Shown: positions 12,001 to 18,000 of the stretch, piece by piece | Numbering within the stretch: position 1 is the stretch's first letter | Layout of the letters: the number at the start of each line of letters is the position of its first letter | DNA from: a virus | UHGV virus genome: UHGV-0068847 | Reading direction: 5' to 3' (one strand) | Length of the DNA stretch: 27,295 bases | Position numbers: made by a program

Positions 12001-15000
12001 AGGGGCCGCTGGCCGGTCGTCACCTCATTAGCGCTGATGGCCGTAAATACCAGAGCGCTGCCTGCGTGGCGATCATTGAGCAATTACGACGTCTCCCGAA
12101 GCCATCGACTGAACTGGCAGCGGTAGAAATCACTCTGTACCCGCCGGATGCGCGCCGCCGGGATATCGATAATTACAACAAAGCCCTGTTTGACGCGCTG
12201 ACGCATGCGGGTGTCTGGGAAGACGACAGCCAGATTAAGCGCATGCTGGTGGAATGGGGACCCGTAGTGCCGAAAGGTCGGGTAGAGATAACGATCAGCA
12301 GATATGAACCGGCGGGTGCAGCCGCCTGATATGGAGAAAAGTATGAGCCAGTTAATCGTGAATGGTGTAGTAACAATGTCCAGCCGTGATATTGCGGATC
12401 TGGTTCAGAGTAAACACAGTGACGTGAAACGCTCGGCTGAGCGTCTTGTTGCTGCGGGAATTTTAACCGCGCCGTTGGCGCAGTTCGATTTTGAGCATAA
12501 CGGCAATGTTTACCAGGAGTATCGTTTTAACAAACGCGACTCTCTGGTGATTGTTGCCAGACTGTCACCAGAATTTACCGCTGCGGTTGTTGATCGGTGG
12601 CAGGAACTGGAAGAAGGGCAGAGTGTCAGTGTTCCCCGCTCATTGCCGGAAGCGCTTCGCCTGGCTGCTGATTTAGCCGAGCAGAAAGAGCAACTGACCA
12701 TCCAGCTGGCAGCTGCGGCGCCAAAAGTGGAGTTTGTTGATCGTTATTGCTCTGCAAAAGGCTCCATGTCATTCCGGCAGGTAGCCAAATTGCTCAACGC
12801 AAAAGAAACTGAGTTCCGCCTGTTCCTTATTGAACGCAATATCCTGTATCGCCTCGGCGGCACACTTACCCCTATGGCGCAGCACATTTCCGCAGGAAGA
12901 TTTGAAGTTAAGACGGGAACATCGAACACATCCAATCACGCATTTAGCCAGACGCGTTTCACTGCCAAGGGAGTACGCTGGATTGGTGGTTTGTGGGCTG
13001 AACATATTGCAGGGGGGCAGGCGGCGTGAGGGCTTTGTTAACTCCTGAAGTAGCCCATCGTATGGGGATTGTGTTGTTTCGTCCCGGCGCGGAACTGATG
13101 CACCTCTTCATGCGTGGTCGCGTTCTGCTCGAACCTGAACCAGAAGAAATGGCGTCATTCAGTACCGGGGCTGTTCCGGCAGCCATTCAGCCGCTGGCTG
13201 ATGATCCGGTAATGCGGCAGGTCTTCGGGAATGAGCGGGTTATTCAGCGTGCCGGTGGGCTTCCTTCCCTTGAGCAGTGGCTGAGTTCTCGGTTTGAATG
13301 CCAGTGGCCACATTCATCGTGGCACGACAAGAACTTCACAACAATGCGGCACCCACCAGGAAGCATTCGCCTGTGCTGGCATTGCGATCACACTTTGTCG
13401 GGGCAGCATACCGAACAGCTTGCAGGTATAGCGGCAGGAAACCTGGTATCCTGGATTCTGGAAGTCATTCGGCGTGATTCTGGTTTTCCCGAGTCGCATA
13501 TCCTGACGCTTCCGGAACTGTGCTGGTGGATGGTCAGAAACGACCTGGCTGATGTTATTCCGGAAAGCGTTGCGCACAAAGGGCTGCGCCTCCCGGATGA
13601 GAACATCCGCTCTGTCATGAGGGAAAGCGACATTGTGCCTTCAGCGTCTGCAACCAGCCTCGTGCAGGAGAAGGCGAAGAAGATCCTCACGCTCTCTGTT
13701 GATCCGGAGTCTCCAGAATCTTTCATGCTCAGGCCAAAGCGACGCCGCTGGATAAATGAGACGTACACCCGCTGGGTTAAAACACAACCCTGTGAGTGTT
13801 GCCGACGGCCAGCAGATGATCCGCACCATATCGTAGGGCACGGTATGGGTGGTACAGCAACAAAAGCCCATGACCTCTTCGTGATCCCTCTGTGCAGAGA
13901 GTGCCACGACGAGTTACACGCCGATGTACCAGCATTCGAGCAGAAGCATGGTACGCAGCTTGAGCTGCTACTGCGTTTTATGGATCGGGCGCTGGCGATC
14001 GGCGTAATTGCGAAAGCTTAAGTGTATGGAGCGCAAAGAAGCATGAATCAACAAGACCTGAATTTTGTAAGAATAGAATTGCGCCGCGCGCTACCTGACC
14101 TCTCTGGGGGAACAAAAGGGCAGCTTGAGGCTTTCAGTGAACACCCACCAGCAGACAAAAATGCCACCCCGCGCCGTGGAATTCATCTCGTCGAACTCGA
14201 AGGAGAGAAGGGGCCACGCTTTGTTAACTCGCTTTCCGCGCCACTGTATGTGCTGGAAACACGCAGCCGCCGCAGGCCAATGCCGCCGATAAAAGATGCG
14301 GAATTTGAGTCCGCGCCGTGGCGTAGGGCAGTGTCCGCGCTTAGTGGATACCAGCAGGCCTGGTTGCGGTACTGCTACGGTTTTGACCTTAGCTATAAGC
14401 ACCAGGTGATGATGTGTGAATACGTCTGGAAAACTTATCAGAAATGCCTGGGTGAAAACTCGCTTCAGGAGCGTGTAGTAAAGAAACTGATAGGTCTGGT
14501 ATGGCTGGCAGGGCAGGAAATTGCCGCAAACAGAAATAATGAAACCTATAAAGACTATGCTGGTGCAGCGTTGGCCCGCATGGTTAGCGTTGACCGTTCG
14601 ACATGGTTGCGTGTCTATTCATGGCACTGGGCTGGGTTAAAGGCCGCTTTTACCCAGCTTGATGAATCTGCGTTGGCAATGGCTCTTGAATACTATGAGG
14701 AAGAAGAAGCCCTCAAAGTGGCAGAAATGTGAAGTAAATTTCACTATCTCCTTCAAACGCGCTTGCAAAATGCAACAAAATAAGCCATATTTTAAGCATA
14801 TTTGATATGTTGCCAAAATTTTATAAACCCGCCGATGAGCGGGTTTTATTATTGTTGTTGGATGAAACTGAGGGGAAAGGTTAAAATTTGCCCTTCACCC
14901 GCCGGGTGATGTGCACATGAGTGCTATAAACTCCACATGGAGAGCATCATGGTTAATTTAGATAGTCACCATTTTCATACCCTACGTTTTATTCATTCTT

Positions 15001-18000
15001 GTTATTTGTCTAATGAAGGTATGAATACTTTTGTGCAATTGTTATTCGTATCCAATCATCAGGATCCTGACGGCACATACCATGGGGTATTTCCAGATAC
15101 CAAGGTTGGTATAAGTATGACTGAATACCTATACCAAAAAACTTGCTCATCATCAGAGAAGGCTAAGTCATTAAAACCAACCTGGTTGCATTGGCGACAA
15201 CAGGAAGCTCTGGAGCTAAAACGAAATCCCTTTGATATTTAAATTTGAGATTTACCAGCCCTGGCATTCGCCGGGGCTTTTTTATTTCAGGCTCACGGGA
15301 ATCATCCACGATACATATTGTTGATAAATCCAGCCCGTGAAGCCTGACCCTTTCATCACACAGCGCCATCCGAATAATCGGAGGTAGGGCTATGACCAGA
15401 ATGAGCACCATTTACAGCAGACTTTCATATGGATCAGGAACCACGCTTGCCGGCTGCGGTGTATCAGCGAAGGCATATGCCGAAACAGCTAAAACAGCAA
15501 AAGAGGTGTCCTGGATGTTGGCCGACAGAATTGCAGGGTTAAGCCTGAGCGACTGGGCAATTATTGTCGGTATCGCATGCACAGTTATCACTTGTGCAGT
15601 GAACTGGTATTTCCGCTGGAAAGAACGGGAGGATCGGCGCAATGGCTATGCCACCAAAGCTGAAGAATAAACTGAGCGCAGCGGTCGTTGGTTTGATTCT
15701 TGCGGGGGCTTCCGCGCCCGTGATTCTCGATCAGTTTCTGGATGAGAAAGAGGGTAACAGCCTGACAGCATATCGCGACGGCGGCGGAATCTGGACTATT
15801 TGCCGTGGCGCCACGATGGTTGATGGTAAGCCAGTAGTTCAGGGCATGAAGCTGTCTGCTGAGAAATGCGCCAAGGTGAACGCCATAGAACGCGACAAGG
15901 CGCTGGCGTGGGTTGAGCGAAATATCAAAGTACCACTGACCGAACCACAGAAAGCGGGTATTGCGTCATTTTGTCCTTACAACATCGGCCCCGGAAAATG
16001 TTTCCCTTCTACGTTCTATAAGCGCATTAACGCTGGTGACCGTAAAGGCGCCTGTGAAGCGATCCGCTGGTGGATTAAAGACGGCGGCCGCGACTGTCGT
16101 CTGACCAAAGGCCAGAAAAATGGGTGCTATGGGCAGGTCGAGCGGCGCGATCAAGAAAGTGCGCTGACGTGCTGGGGGATTGACCGGTGAGTCGACTAAC
16201 AAACATCATCATTACTGTGATCATCTGCATAATCTTATCTCTAGGCTGGGCCGTTAACCACTACCGCGACAACGCGATCACCTACAAAGACCAACGCAAC
16301 AAAGCAACTGAAAAGCTCAGCCTAGCTAACGTTACTATCACCGACATGCAAACCCGCCAGCGCGATGTCGCTGCACTGGATGCCAAATATACGAAGGAGT
16401 TAGCTGATGCGAAAAACACCATTAGCGGTCTACGTGGCGATGTTGAGTCTGGGCGCAAGCAGCTGCGCGTTGCAGCCGCCTGCAATAAAGTGCGTCAAAC
16501 CACCGACACCGCCAGCATGGATGATGCAACCGGCCCCAGACTTACTGACACCGCTCAACGGGATTATTTCACTCTCAGAGAGCGAATAGAAACTGTCACC
16601 AAGCAACTTGCCGGATTACAAGAATATGTCAGTGCGCAGAATTTAAAATGACTTGTCACCTATTTCGCTGTCTGATTAGTTATTCAATATTAGTTGGCAT
16701 AGCGTTAGTAATTAACTGCAATGGCTATGACTGCAATTAATTATGGCATCAGCTTTGCTTGATGAGGATGATGGATATTTTTCGGATAAGAATTTCTGTA
16801 TGTCTTCAACAGCTTCGATGCTGACTCTAATATTTGTATGGCCATTGTTTTTTAAATAATTAACTGCTTCATCTATAAGGTTGTTTTCTGATAGAAATTT
16901 GATAACAATGGCAAAGTTATCAACGCCGGTTTCGGTTAAAAGTTCACAGTTAGGCATGGTTGTTACTCCAGTGATGTAAATGAGATTTTATTTTGGATTG
17001 TTTTTTTATCAGCGTGGGTGATATGTTTGTATGATTTTTGAGGTTGCCTAAACACAAAAGTTGTATTCAAAGTAATCGAGCTAATTAGGGTGGGCCGCTG
17101 GTTTGGTAAGGTCAGGGGATTAACTCTTATTCTATTACCTTTCTGCGTTGCCATAACCATGGGCAGACCCATCGTAATGGTAGTTTTTGAATAGGCCGCT
17201 AATGAATTCATGGCGCATGGTTTTGGGAGGCGATTTGCAAGCAGGCATCTCGGACTTGTATCGCAAGACGAAGCCCTTCCTGAAATCTTGCTGATGCGTT
17301 GGGATCGTTTGCTGAATTTAGATAGACATTAAAAAGCTGCATGATGGTAACGCTATATGCTTGCTTAATAGCATTTTCAGTAATTGTTTCGTCCATCGAG
17401 AATCTCCTCGGTAGCATAGATGACAGGTTTACTTCCGTCTTACCATAGGTCATCAATGGGATTACTTTAATAGGAAAGAAGCATGAGCAAGCCGGACTGG
17501 GAGGTCATCGGGGCGGCGTACTGTGCCGGAGTGATGGCCCTCCGTGAAATTACATCGCAGCACGACATTAGTGAAGGGACAATGCAGAACCATACTAACT
17601 ACTGAGTGAGTGAAACAGACAATATCATCGGTAAGGATGATGGCAATAGCCCCCGACTTACTGACGCCGCTAAACGGGATTATTTCACCCTCAGAGAGCG
17701 AATCAGCACCATCACCGGGCAAGTGAGTTACTTACAGGATTACATCAGGCAGCAATGTTTGAAGTGAATGGCCGCTAGACTTAGCCAGCCATTTTAAAGA
17801 GTTAACCAACGGTTAATGTGGAAAGCAAATGCGAAGTTTCCCCAGAGCAGTTAACAGTGGTTTCGTTGTAAGGGAATTCACCCGTATACTCGCTATTTGC
17901 AGGGGGAGTCATTTTGTTAATCAATGCAGCTTCTGCGCGCACCCGATCATCTTTTCCAGTAATAGTAGCGACGGAATAGCAGAGAGTCTCACCGACCATT

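What the first reader, a model, noticed from the sequence alone, without database searches (positions are those of the whole stretch)
14863..15290. AT-rich moron with its own palindromic operator-like sites and terminator between Q/PR' and the holin
The ORF 14949-15242 (about 97 aa; His/Cys-containing N-terminus MVNLDSHHFHTLRFIHSCY) is clearly more AT-rich than its neighbours and is closed by a good intrinsic terminator (15256-15288).

Just upstream are a 15-bp perfect palindrome, TCACCCGCCGGGTGA (14895-14909), and an adjacent 8-bp palindrome, TGTGCACA (14909-14916). These are candidate binding sites for a dimeric regulator.

This is the classical location of late-expressed virulence and fitness morons (stx in Stx phages), where cargo is transcribed by Q-mediated read-through yet remains independently regulatable in the lysogen.
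Basis: partly seen in the sequence, partly recalled or inferred. Interest (0 to 1): 0.5.

Follow-up and report, generated by a model that had tools for sequence, protein, structure and literature searches.

The report
Prophage moron with structured mRNA leader
A small extra gene of unknown function sits between a prophage's late-gene activator and its lysis genes, and the "operator" palindromes in front of it are more likely hairpins in its own mRNA; it is a fairly ordinary kind of phage cargo gene.

Summary
ORF 14949-15242 (97 aa) is real, AT-rich (GC 0.37, against 0.50-0.55 in its neighbours), and closed by a good intrinsic terminator (15257-15288). It lies between Q (14022-14732) with a tR'-like terminator (14825-14856) and the holin (15392).

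It is a true coding gene. It belongs to a closed family of 23 protein clusters, seen only in prophages of Citrobacter, Enterobacter, Kluyvera, Leclercia, Cronobacter and Atlantibacter. Median dN/dS is 0.28. In nearly all relatives it lies about 200 bp after Q, whichever of two Q families or at least four lysis cassettes flanks it. That makes it a self-contained moron.

The operator reading is not supported. A conserved TTGGnT-17/18-TAnAAT promoter (window -10 at 14882-14887) puts the 15-bp palindrome at about +1 of the transcript. In relatives its arms diverge through G·U-compatible and compensatory changes. The second palindrome lies in the strand that pairs with the Shine-Dalgarno sequence and start codon.

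The last 49 nt of the leader are 94% identical among relatives, against 76% at third codon positions.

The protein gives a confident model (pLDDT 86) but matches no known family or fold. Its function is unknown.

The parts
14022..14732 (+). Q antiterminator gene (context, left neighbour)
   Evidence: Pfam PF06323 Phage_antiter_Q, E 1.2e-36.
14763..14791 (+). Putative late promoter pR' (TTGCAA 14763-68, 17-nt spacer, CATATT 14786-91)
   Evidence: Read from the sequence. The block is conserved in all PF06323-Q loci aligned and is 97% identical in the E. coli Nissle prophage. It falls below the promoter scan's threshold (8 of 12), so this is inference.
14825..14856 (+). tR'-like intrinsic terminator of the short pR' transcript, and left boundary of the moron
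   Evidence: The terminator scan gives 8 pairs plus a T-tract. Homology with Nissle and other phages ends at about 14850.
14858..14887 (+). The moron's own sigma-70-type promoter (-35 TTGGAT 14858-63, 18-nt spacer, -10 TAAAAT 14882-87)
   Evidence: TAnAAT is invariant at positions 1, 2, 4, 5 and 6 in all 16 distinct family leaders. A TTGnnT -35 abuts the upstream terminator's T-tract in most of them. There are no transcript data.
14895..14909 (+).
   Evidence: It starts 7-8 nt after the -10. 96% of alignment cells pair. 13 of the 16 non-Watson-Crick cells are G·U. L015 has the unrelated stem CCCATCGCC/GGCGATGGG.
14910..14925 (+). It forms either local hairpin 2 (GCAC 14913-16 with GUGC 14921-24) or the 5' strand of a long helix with 14943-14953
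   Evidence: RNAalifold and pair counts give 98% paired, a G·U to A-U change and an outer C-G to U-A swap. Minimum-free-energy folds give the long helix.
14931..14942 (+). Anti-SD CUCC (14931-34) paired with SD GGAG (14939-42)
   Evidence: The SD is predicted to be paired in every family member. Probability unpaired is 0.01 in the window and 0.09-0.45 elsewhere. Two pairs swap on both sides between subfamilies.
14949..15242 (+). 97-aa protein-coding gene, an uncharacterised family
   Evidence: Homologues at 26-59% identity. Median dN/dS 0.28. AF2 pLDDT 86. No Pfam, PHROG, PADLOC, NCBIfam or PDB match.
15257..15288 (+). Intrinsic terminator of the moron, and right boundary
   Evidence: Terminator scan. 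The stem AGCCCTGGC/GCCGGGGCT is kept across the family. Homology with the holin modules of mEp237, HK225 and Gifsy-2 begins inside it, at about 15264-15275.
15289..15391 (+). Leader of the lysis module (context, not part of the moron)
   Evidence: 78-88% identical upstream of the holin in mEp237, HK225, Gifsy-2 and Klebsiella phages, which carry other cargo.
15392..15670 (+). Holin (context, right neighbour)
   Evidence: PF16080 and PF04971.

Best explanation
Window 14858-15288 is a self-contained moron inserted exactly between the tR' terminator of the Q/pR' module and the leader of the lysis cassette.

**Shown**
- It encodes a real, selected 97-aa soluble protein. The family is narrow and restricted to Enterobacteriaceae prophages.
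- The module travels as a unit: conserved -10/-35, structured leader, SD, ORF and terminator. It is found next to two unrelated Q families, at least four lysis cassettes and several head modules.

**Inferred**
1. In the lysogen a sigma-70 promoter (TTGGAT-18-TAAAAT) starts transcription at about 14894-14895. The -35 abuts the tR' T-tract.
2. This is the kind of element known to protect E. coli mRNAs from 5'-end-dependent decay.
3. The following segment, including TGTGCACA, pairs with the SD and start codon, so translation is throttled.
4. The strong terminator at 15257-15288 insulates the lethal holin and lysozyme genes from this promoter.
5. After induction, Q-modified RNA polymerase from pR' reads through tR', the moron and its terminator. 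The gene is then also made as the first late message.

**Protein function**
The protein is neutral to acidic (pI 4.4-6.8). It has no signal peptide or membrane segment and no conserved metal-binding motif. The model is a small beta-rich domain with a conserved C-terminal PxWLHWRQQEALxLK helix. I consider it most likely to act by binding a host or phage protein, for example in phage-phage competition or lysogen fitness. This last step is a guess.
For: **Boundaries**
- The flanks 14700-14850 and 15264-15400 match other phages. The segment 14851-15264 has no match in 5,426 E. coli genomes or 50,697 phage records.
- mEp237, Gifsy-2 and the Nissle prophage carry other cargo in the same slot.
- GC is 0.367 and GC3 is 0.316, against 0.50-0.58 in the neighbours.

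**Coding**
- A 47%-identical homologue differs mostly at third codon positions.
- Median dN/dS is 0.28 over 123 pairs.
- The family has 23 clusters and closes on iteration.

**Modularity**
- In all loci but the most distant pair (L015/L016) the gene lies after Q (PF06323 or PF03589), with different lysis and head modules.

**Promoter and leader**
- TAnAAT and TTGnnT are conserved.
- A three-helix model pairs 94.7% of cells, against 33-51% for slid controls. It has 5 pairs changed on both sides, and 0 of 500 shuffles reach the observed score.
- On the opposite strand only 74.6% of cells would pair.
- The SD is predicted to be paired in all members.
- The last 49 nt of the leader are 94% identical, against 76% for third codon positions and 87% for positions 1+2.
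- In IMG/VR the leader motif occurs in this context only with this ORF.

**Terminator**
- It is found by the scan and conserved across the family.

**Protein**
- AF2 pLDDT is 86 and pTM is 0.73.
- pI and GRAVY are consistent with a soluble protein.
Against: - There are no transcript, TSS or protein data. The promoter and +1 are inferred from conservation only, and the simple promoter scan did not call this promoter.
- The helix model was derived from the same 12 sequences on which it was counted, and these are phylogenetically related.
- Independent events in hairpin 1 are few: about 4 G·U events against 3 mismatches, all at the outer pairs.
- Single-sequence folds disagree on whether the TGTGCACA segment forms a local hairpin or the long helix over the translation start. 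z-scores are modest, -2.2 in the window and about 0 in some relatives.
- In the window itself the palindrome is perfect, and it sits where a repressor could block RNA polymerase.
Confidence: 0.6

Rival explanations
1. The 15-bp and 8-bp palindromes are DNA operators for a dimeric regulator, which keeps the moron promoter independently controlled in the lysogen.
For: - The palindrome is perfect in the window (7+1+7) and unique there.
- It overlaps +1 to +23 of the conserved promoter, a position from which repressors can act.
- The 3' half GGGTGAT and the GCGC core are nearly invariant across the family.
- TGTGCACA against TGCGCGCA keeps its palindromic form through two changes.
Against: - Half-site symmetry is not conserved. 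The 5' arms read TCACTC, CTACCC, TCATCC and CCACCC against an almost fixed 3' arm.
- 13 of the 16 non-Watson-Crick cells are G·U, which matters only for + strand RNA.
- L015 keeps a 9-bp stem of unrelated sequence.
- The L013 version of the second site is not an 8-bp palindrome.
- There is no related site elsewhere in the window, which includes the cI-like gene (6449-7108) and the region around it.
- No regulator gene travels with the module.
- TGTGCACA alone is within chance expectation.
Confidence: 0.15
2. The module has no promoter of its own. ORF97 is simply the first gene of the Q-dependent late transcript. The hairpins and the second terminator act only on that read-through RNA, for example as processing or stability elements or as a second checkpoint terminator that tightens Q dependence of lysis.
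For: - The position is directly downstream of pR'-tR'.
- The promoter scan did not call a promoter at 14858-14887.
- Two terminators in series before the lysis genes would lower leak.
- The -35 is weak (TTGGAT, 3 of 6).
Against: - The TAnAAT hexamer shows the variation pattern expected of a -10 element, at fixed distance from hairpin 1, in every member. This includes the distant L015, which lies in a different context, and loci with either Q family.
- The surrounding promoter-region sequence is otherwise only about 61% identical.
Confidence: 0.2
3. The ORF is not a gene. The region is non-coding mosaic-junction debris or a small RNA bracketed by two terminators.
For: - There is no match in Pfam, PHROGs, PADLOC, NCBIfam, PDB or 50,697 phage genomes.
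- The composition is AT-rich.
- Close copies are almost identical, so they say nothing about selection.
Against: - Homologues at 26-59% identity keep length, frame, SD and stop.
- dN/dS is 0.19-0.36 among unsaturated pairs.
- The AF2 model is confident.
- No Rfam family reaches its threshold.
Confidence: 0.02

Closest known systems
Morons of lambdoid and HK97-like phages (definition cited in PMC3594210: GC content different from the neighbours, own promoter and terminator, expressed from the repressed prophage)
   Same: - It is an extra gene between conserved neighbours that is absent from related phages.
- Its GC is lower than its surroundings.
- It has a candidate sigma-70 promoter and an intrinsic terminator of its own.
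- It moves between phages as a unit.
   Different: - Expression from the repressed prophage is not shown.
- The cargo protein belongs to no described moron family.
- The leader is unusually conserved and structured.
stx operons and other cargo in the Q-pR'-tR' to S interval of Stx and other lambdoid phages (own knowledge; review PMC8065619)
   Same: - It occupies the same slot.
- It would be co-transcribed with the late genes by Q-mediated read-through.
- Some relatives also carry tRNA genes in this interval: tRNA-Arg UCU in L012 and tRNA-Gly UCC in L017.
   Different: - There is no signal peptide or toxin-like domain, and it is a single small cytoplasmic protein.
- There is no sequence or fold similarity.
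- It was not found in E. coli complete genomes.
5'-terminal stem-loop mRNA stabilisers (such as the ompA 5' UTR) and SD-sequestering leader hairpins (own knowledge)
   Same: - A stem-loop starts at or within 1-2 nt of the predicted +1.
- A downstream helix pairs the SD and AUG.
   Different: - Function is inferred from position and covariation only.
- There is no Rfam family.
- It does not behave like an RNA thermometer in silico. SD accessibility is 0.00-0.01 from 25 to 42 C in the window.
Lambda pR'-6S RNA-tR' unit (own knowledge)
   Same: The upstream element 14763-14856 has the same layout. A promoter lies right after Q, followed by a short transcript and an intrinsic terminator that Q-modified polymerase must override.
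   Different: This is the neighbour of the finding, not the finding itself. The predicted short RNA is only about 55-60 nt.

Membership tests
Moron (Hendrix/Juhala sense) | Extra DNA between two genes that are adjacent, or differently filled, in related phages | tested here: met
   The flanks match other phages. The segment 14851-15264 does not. Other cargo fills the slot in mEp237, Gifsy-2 and the Nissle prophage.
Moron (Hendrix/Juhala sense) | Nucleotide composition different from the neighbours | tested here: met
   GC is 0.367 and GC3 is 0.316, against 0.50-0.58 in the neighbours.
Moron (Hendrix/Juhala sense) | Own promoter | tested here: inconclusive
   TTGnnT-17/18-TAnAAT is conserved in all members. 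It falls below the simple scan's threshold and there are no transcript data.
Moron (Hendrix/Juhala sense) | Own factor-independent terminator | tested here: met
   15257-15288 has 9 pairs (7 G-C) plus a T-tract, and is conserved in the family.
Moron (Hendrix/Juhala sense) | Expressed from the repressed prophage | not testable with these tools
   This needs RNA-seq or 5'-RACE of a lysogen.
Repressor-operator controlled promoter | Dyad-symmetric DNA site with both half-sites conserved | tested here: not met
   The 5' arm varies while the 3' arm is fixed. Changes are of the G·U type. L015's arms are unrelated in sequence.
Repressor-operator controlled promoter | A cognate regulator gene, or further copies of the site in the element | tested here: not met
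   No other copy with 2 or fewer mismatches in the 27-kb window. The module carries a single ORF in all contexts.
Secreted toxin or virulence cargo of the Stx type | Signal peptide or known toxin/effector domain | tested here: not met
   The N-terminus MVNLDSHHFHTLRF has no hydrophobic core and GRAVY is -0.54. No Pfam or NCBIfam hit. No signal-peptide predictor was run.
Known anti-phage defence proteins (PADLOC) or phage protein families (PHROGs) | Profile match | tested here: not met
   No hits at E of 0.1 or better.
Curated RNA families (Rfam), including RNA thermometers | Covariance-model match at the gathering score; for thermometers, SD opening with temperature | tested here: not met
   No match at gathering score. 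Only sub-threshold hits driven by the terminators. Predicted SD accessibility is flat from 25 to 42 C.

The most novel reading that the evidence does not exclude
The leader is the most conserved part of the module (94% identity, against 76% at synonymous positions). On this reading it is a dedicated cis-regulatory RNA switch. A 5' hairpin plus a helix that sequesters the translation start would be opened by an unknown trans factor or signal. It would gate the translation of a small protein with a previously undescribed fold that acts in phage-host or phage-phage conflict. One speculative mechanism is binding RNA polymerase or another host machine through a Tudor/SH3-like beta-barrel.
Probability: 0.15. 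Interest if true: 0.55.

Novelty: new member of a known kind. Interest (0 to 1): 0.3.

Why it matters
- It adds a clean, well-bounded example of a moron in the Q-lysis hotspot. It also defines a small uncharacterised protein family (23 clusters, confident predicted structure, no known relatives) that could be tested for a lysogen phenotype.
- It corrects a tempting misreading. Palindromes just after a promoter are here better explained as mRNA structure than as operators.
- It points to an unusually constrained 5' leader. If that leader proves to be a regulatory switch, it would show how prophages keep cargo expression low and insulated next to lethal lysis genes.
- Otherwise this is ordinary phage mosaicism.

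Tried and rejected
- **Alternative start at ATG 14937 (101 aa).** Rejected. The SD GGAG at 14939-42 serves ATG 14949, and gene callers and homologues agree on 97 or 93 aa.
- **Extended -10 promoter TGcTATAAA (14922-30), with the palindromes at -35 and in the spacer.** Rejected. L013 reads TGCAATTAA there, and the 93-aa subfamily has no such element.
- **The 107-aa form starting at the leader ATG.** Rejected. It has an in-frame TAA in L021/L023/L044, is out of frame in L015, and is a 3-codon mini-ORF in the window.
- **Function by homology.** Pfam, PHROGs, PADLOC, NCBIfam and PDB sequence search gave nothing. HMMER against 1.84 billion representatives found only the family itself plus one low-complexity false hit, P0011.
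- **RNA thermometer.** There is no predicted melting of the SD between 25 and 42 C.
- **Portable leader element upstream of other genes.** The 8 extra IMG/VR pattern hits are chance matches inside unrelated coding sequence.
- **Presence in isolated phages or E. coli.** Not found.
- **First pair count.** I mis-registered helix 1 by one column and redid the count.

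
Full report
**1. What is in the sequence**

- An ORF runs from ATG 14949 to the stop at 15242 (97 aa, MVNLDSHHFHTLRFIHSCY...). GGAG lies at 14939-14942, 6 nt upstream.
- An intrinsic terminator has its stem at 15257-15278 (9 pairs, 7 G-C) and a T-run to 15288.
- The inverted repeat TCACCCGCCGGGTGA is at 14895-14909.

The ORF is clearly AT-rich. Its GC is 0.367 and GC3 is 0.316. Q, holin, lysozyme and Rz have GC 0.50-0.55 and GC3 0.50-0.58.

The 15-mer is unique in the window. 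The 8-mer recurs once, at 22582, and is within chance expectation.

The neighbours are as stated. A PF06323 Q antiterminator lies at 14022-14732. The holin (15392), lysozyme (15642) and Rz (16187) follow.

Between Q and the ORF lies a second terminator, at 14825-14856. It is preceded by a conserved promoter-like block (TTGCAA 14763-68, 17-nt spacer, CATATT 14786-91). I read this unit as pR' plus tR'. That reading rests on layout and conservation only.

**2. Boundaries**

BLAST of 14700-15400 splits the region into three pieces.
- 14700-14850 (the end of Q, pR' and tR') is 97% identical to a prophage of E. coli Nissle and related to several phages.
- 15264-15400 matches the region upstream of the holin in mEp237, HK225, Gifsy-2 and Klebsiella phages.
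- The middle, 14851-15264, matches nothing in 5,426 complete E. coli genomes or 50,697 phage records, as DNA or as protein.

The phages that share the flanks carry other cargo in the same slot: mEp237_056, STM1023 in Gifsy-2, and two other genes in Nissle. The alignment shows homology resuming inside the terminator's 3' arm and T-tract.

So the insert is about 14858-15288. It is bounded on both sides by terminators, and 15289-15391 is the leader of the lysis module.

**3. It is a real gene with a narrow family**

The exact 97-aa protein is indexed in 195 blocks of the assembly collection. Named sources are Citrobacter freundii and "Enterobacteriaceae".

In ten loci it lies 217 bp after a PF06323 Q. 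It is followed by two different lysis cassettes and several different head and terminase modules. The DNA of these copies is almost identical from Q to about 15350, so they say little about selection.

Diverged relatives settle the question.
- A 47%-identical homologue in Enterobacter sp. ENT03 differs mostly at third codon positions.
- A full HMMER scan of 1.84 billion representatives finds only four genuine 50%-identity clusters.
- A profile search finds 23 clusters at 90% identity, all "hypothetical". They come from Citrobacter, Enterobacter, Leclercia, Kluyvera, Cronobacter and Atlantibacter. The family does not grow on iteration.
- Nei-Gojobori dN/dS has a median of 0.28 over 123 pairs, and is 0.19-0.36 among unsaturated pairs.
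- Among 43 loci, one copy is frameshifted (L070) and one is truncated by six codons (L049).

The family sits about 200 bp after Q whether Q is PF06323 or PF03589. Leclercia carries the identical gene with either one. It is found with at least four lysis-cassette types.

It was not found in isolated phage genomes or in complete E. coli genomes.

**4. Promoter and leader: the palindromes are better read as RNA**

I aligned 16 distinct upstream regions. They show the following order of elements.
1. An upstream terminator of variable sequence.
2. TTGnnT, overlapping or abutting that terminator's T-tract.
3. A 17-18 nt spacer ending in GGAAAGG.
4. A hexamer TAAAAT, TATAAT or TAGAAT, in which only the third position varies. 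This is the pattern expected of a -10 element. In the window it is at 14882-14887.
5. Seven to eight nt later, the inverted repeat.

Across the family the 3' arm (GGGTGAT) is almost fixed. The 5' arm reads TCACCC, TCACTC, CTACCC, TCATCC or CCACCC. The changes are C-to-T opposite G, which keep pairing only in + strand RNA. The most distant member, L015, has the unrelated but perfectly complementary stem CCCATCGCC/GGCGATGGG.

RNAalifold predicts three helices. Counting pairs on a 12-sequence alignment gives these results.
- 94.7% of cells pair, against 33-51% when partners are slid by 1-3 columns.
- 5 pairs have changes on both sides, against 1-2 in the slid controls.
- 0 of 500 shuffles reach the observed score.
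- If G·U is disallowed, as it would be on the opposite strand or for a DNA dyad, only 74.6% of cells pair.

Caveats apply. The model was derived from these same related sequences. Independent events in helix 1 are few.

The second "palindrome" is part of the next element. GCAC (14913-16) can pair locally with GUGC (14921-24). The family changes there are G·U to A-U, and an outer C-G to U-A swap. In minimum-free-energy folds, 14913-14925 instead forms the 5' strand of a long interrupted helix with 14943-14953. That helix encloses the pairing of CUCC (14931-34) with the SD GGAG (14939-42).

Whichever variant holds, the SD is predicted to be paired in every member. The probability of being unpaired is 0.01 in the window and 0.09-0.45 elsewhere. 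It does not open between 25 and 42 C.

Within the 93-aa subfamily the conservation ranks as follows.

| Segment | Mean identity |
|---|---|
| Last 49 nt of the leader | 94% |
| Codon positions 1+2 | 87% |
| Third codon positions | 76% |
| Promoter region | about 61% |

This conservation is not coding. The 14-codon extension that some gene callers add is interrupted by TAA in L021 and is out of frame in L015 and in the window.

The leader motif occurs in IMG/VR only in front of this ORF. No Rfam family matches.

An operator cannot be excluded for the window's own perfect palindrome. However, nothing else supports it. There is no conserved dyad, no second site in a window that includes the cI-like gene (6449-7108), and no regulator gene in the module.

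**5. How it most likely works**

The following steps are inferred.
1. In a lysogen, polymerase from pR' stops at tR' (14825-14856).
2. The moron promoter just behind tR' makes a transcript of about 390 nt.
3. That transcript begins with a 5' stem-loop. Such elements are known to protect E. coli mRNAs from 5'-end-dependent decay (own knowledge).
4. Its ribosome-binding site is largely sequestered, which gives low translation.
5. The transcript ends at 15257-15288.

That terminator is needed to keep a constitutive promoter from driving the holin and lysozyme genes. This fits its strong conservation.

After induction, Q-modified polymerase would ignore both terminators, so the gene would also be expressed as the first late gene.

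**6. The protein**

AlphaFold2 on the 23-sequence alignment gives a confident model: pLDDT 86 and pTM 0.73. It has a long beta-hairpin (residues 10-35), two further strands and three short helices.

Invariant or nearly invariant residues cluster in ...F-P-D-T-G-V...M... and the C-terminal P-x-W-L-H-W-R-Q-Q-E-A-L-x-L-K-x-N-P-F. The N-terminal His and Cys residues are not conserved.

The proteins are neutral to acidic (pI 4.4-6.8) and hydrophilic.

Function therefore remains unknown. My working guess is a protein-binding accessory factor for lysogen fitness or phage competition. I hold this with low confidence.

**7. Comparison, novelty and verdict**

The module meets the sequence-level criteria of a moron as defined in PMC3594210: insertion, deviant GC, own terminator and a candidate promoter. 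Expression from the repressed prophage is untested.

It shares its location and read-through logic with stx and other cargo in the Q-S interval. It shares no sequence, fold or secretion features with them.

It is a new member of a known kind. The only mildly unusual aspect is the very strongly conserved, structured leader. Interest is 0.3.

Noticed in passing
window 14789-14816 (- strand): A promoter-like site TTGGCA-16-TAAAAT (10 of 12) points back towards Q. It lies between the putative pR' and tR'. It could give an RNA antisense to the pR' region and the 3' end of Q.
   Followed up: no
window 16489-16606 and 17605-17722; AT-rich tract 16650-17450: The 3' end of Rz/Rz1 has a second copy, 75% identical, 1,116 bp downstream. 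Between the two copies lies an AT-rich tract (GC 0.33-0.40). It holds two minus-strand ORFs (16712-16957 and 17208-17456) with no Pfam hit. This looks like a second cargo insertion that left a partial Rz duplicate.
   Followed up: partly
window 17802-18227 (- strand): A 141-aa ORF has a weak, sub-threshold GIY-YIG match (E 0.0019, 18.9 bits against a cutoff of 22.6).
   Followed up: no
window 16407-16589 (+), inside Rz 16187-16651: An embedded +1-frame ORF has a lipobox-like LSLGASSC and a proline-rich tail. It looks like a typical Rz1 o-spanin nested in Rz.
   Followed up: no
window 14909-14920: The leader contains a 3-codon mini-ORF, ATG TGC ACA TGA. In the 93-aa subfamily the same ATG opens an in-frame 14-codon extension that gene callers report as a 107-aa form. 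That extension is broken by TAA in L021, L023 and L044.
   Followed up: partly
L012 2958-2972 and equivalents in L017, L020, L021, L025, L028: In the 93-aa subfamily the loop of hairpin 2 reads AGGAU within CGCGC-AGGAU-GUGCG. From memory, a GGA in a hairpin loop resembles CsrA-type binding sites. The window's loop is AUGA and lacks it.
   Followed up: no
L012 3956-4032; L017 4735-4809: Some relatives carry a tRNA gene between the moron and the lysis genes: tRNA-Arg(UCU) in L012 and tRNA-Gly(UCC) in L017. Stx phages have tRNA genes in this interval too.
   Followed up: partly
L012, L017, L018, L020, L028: about 40-100 nt after the moron terminator: A conserved non-coding block follows the terminator in several relatives but is absent from the window. 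It reads GGATAGACCGCAGCCGAAAGGCAATGCAGCAGTCATGATGCTGC and contains a hairpin-like GCAGCAG...CTGCTGC.
   Followed up: no
L017/L019 6338-6619; L020 6850-7131: Related prophages carry an Acb2/Tad1-hairpin (anti-defence) gene just after the lysis cassette.
   Followed up: no
window 15106-15137: A 13-nt inverted repeat, 92% complementary (TTGGTATAAGTAT / ATACCTATACCAA), lies inside the ORF. It is not visible in the diverged homologues aligned.
   Followed up: partly
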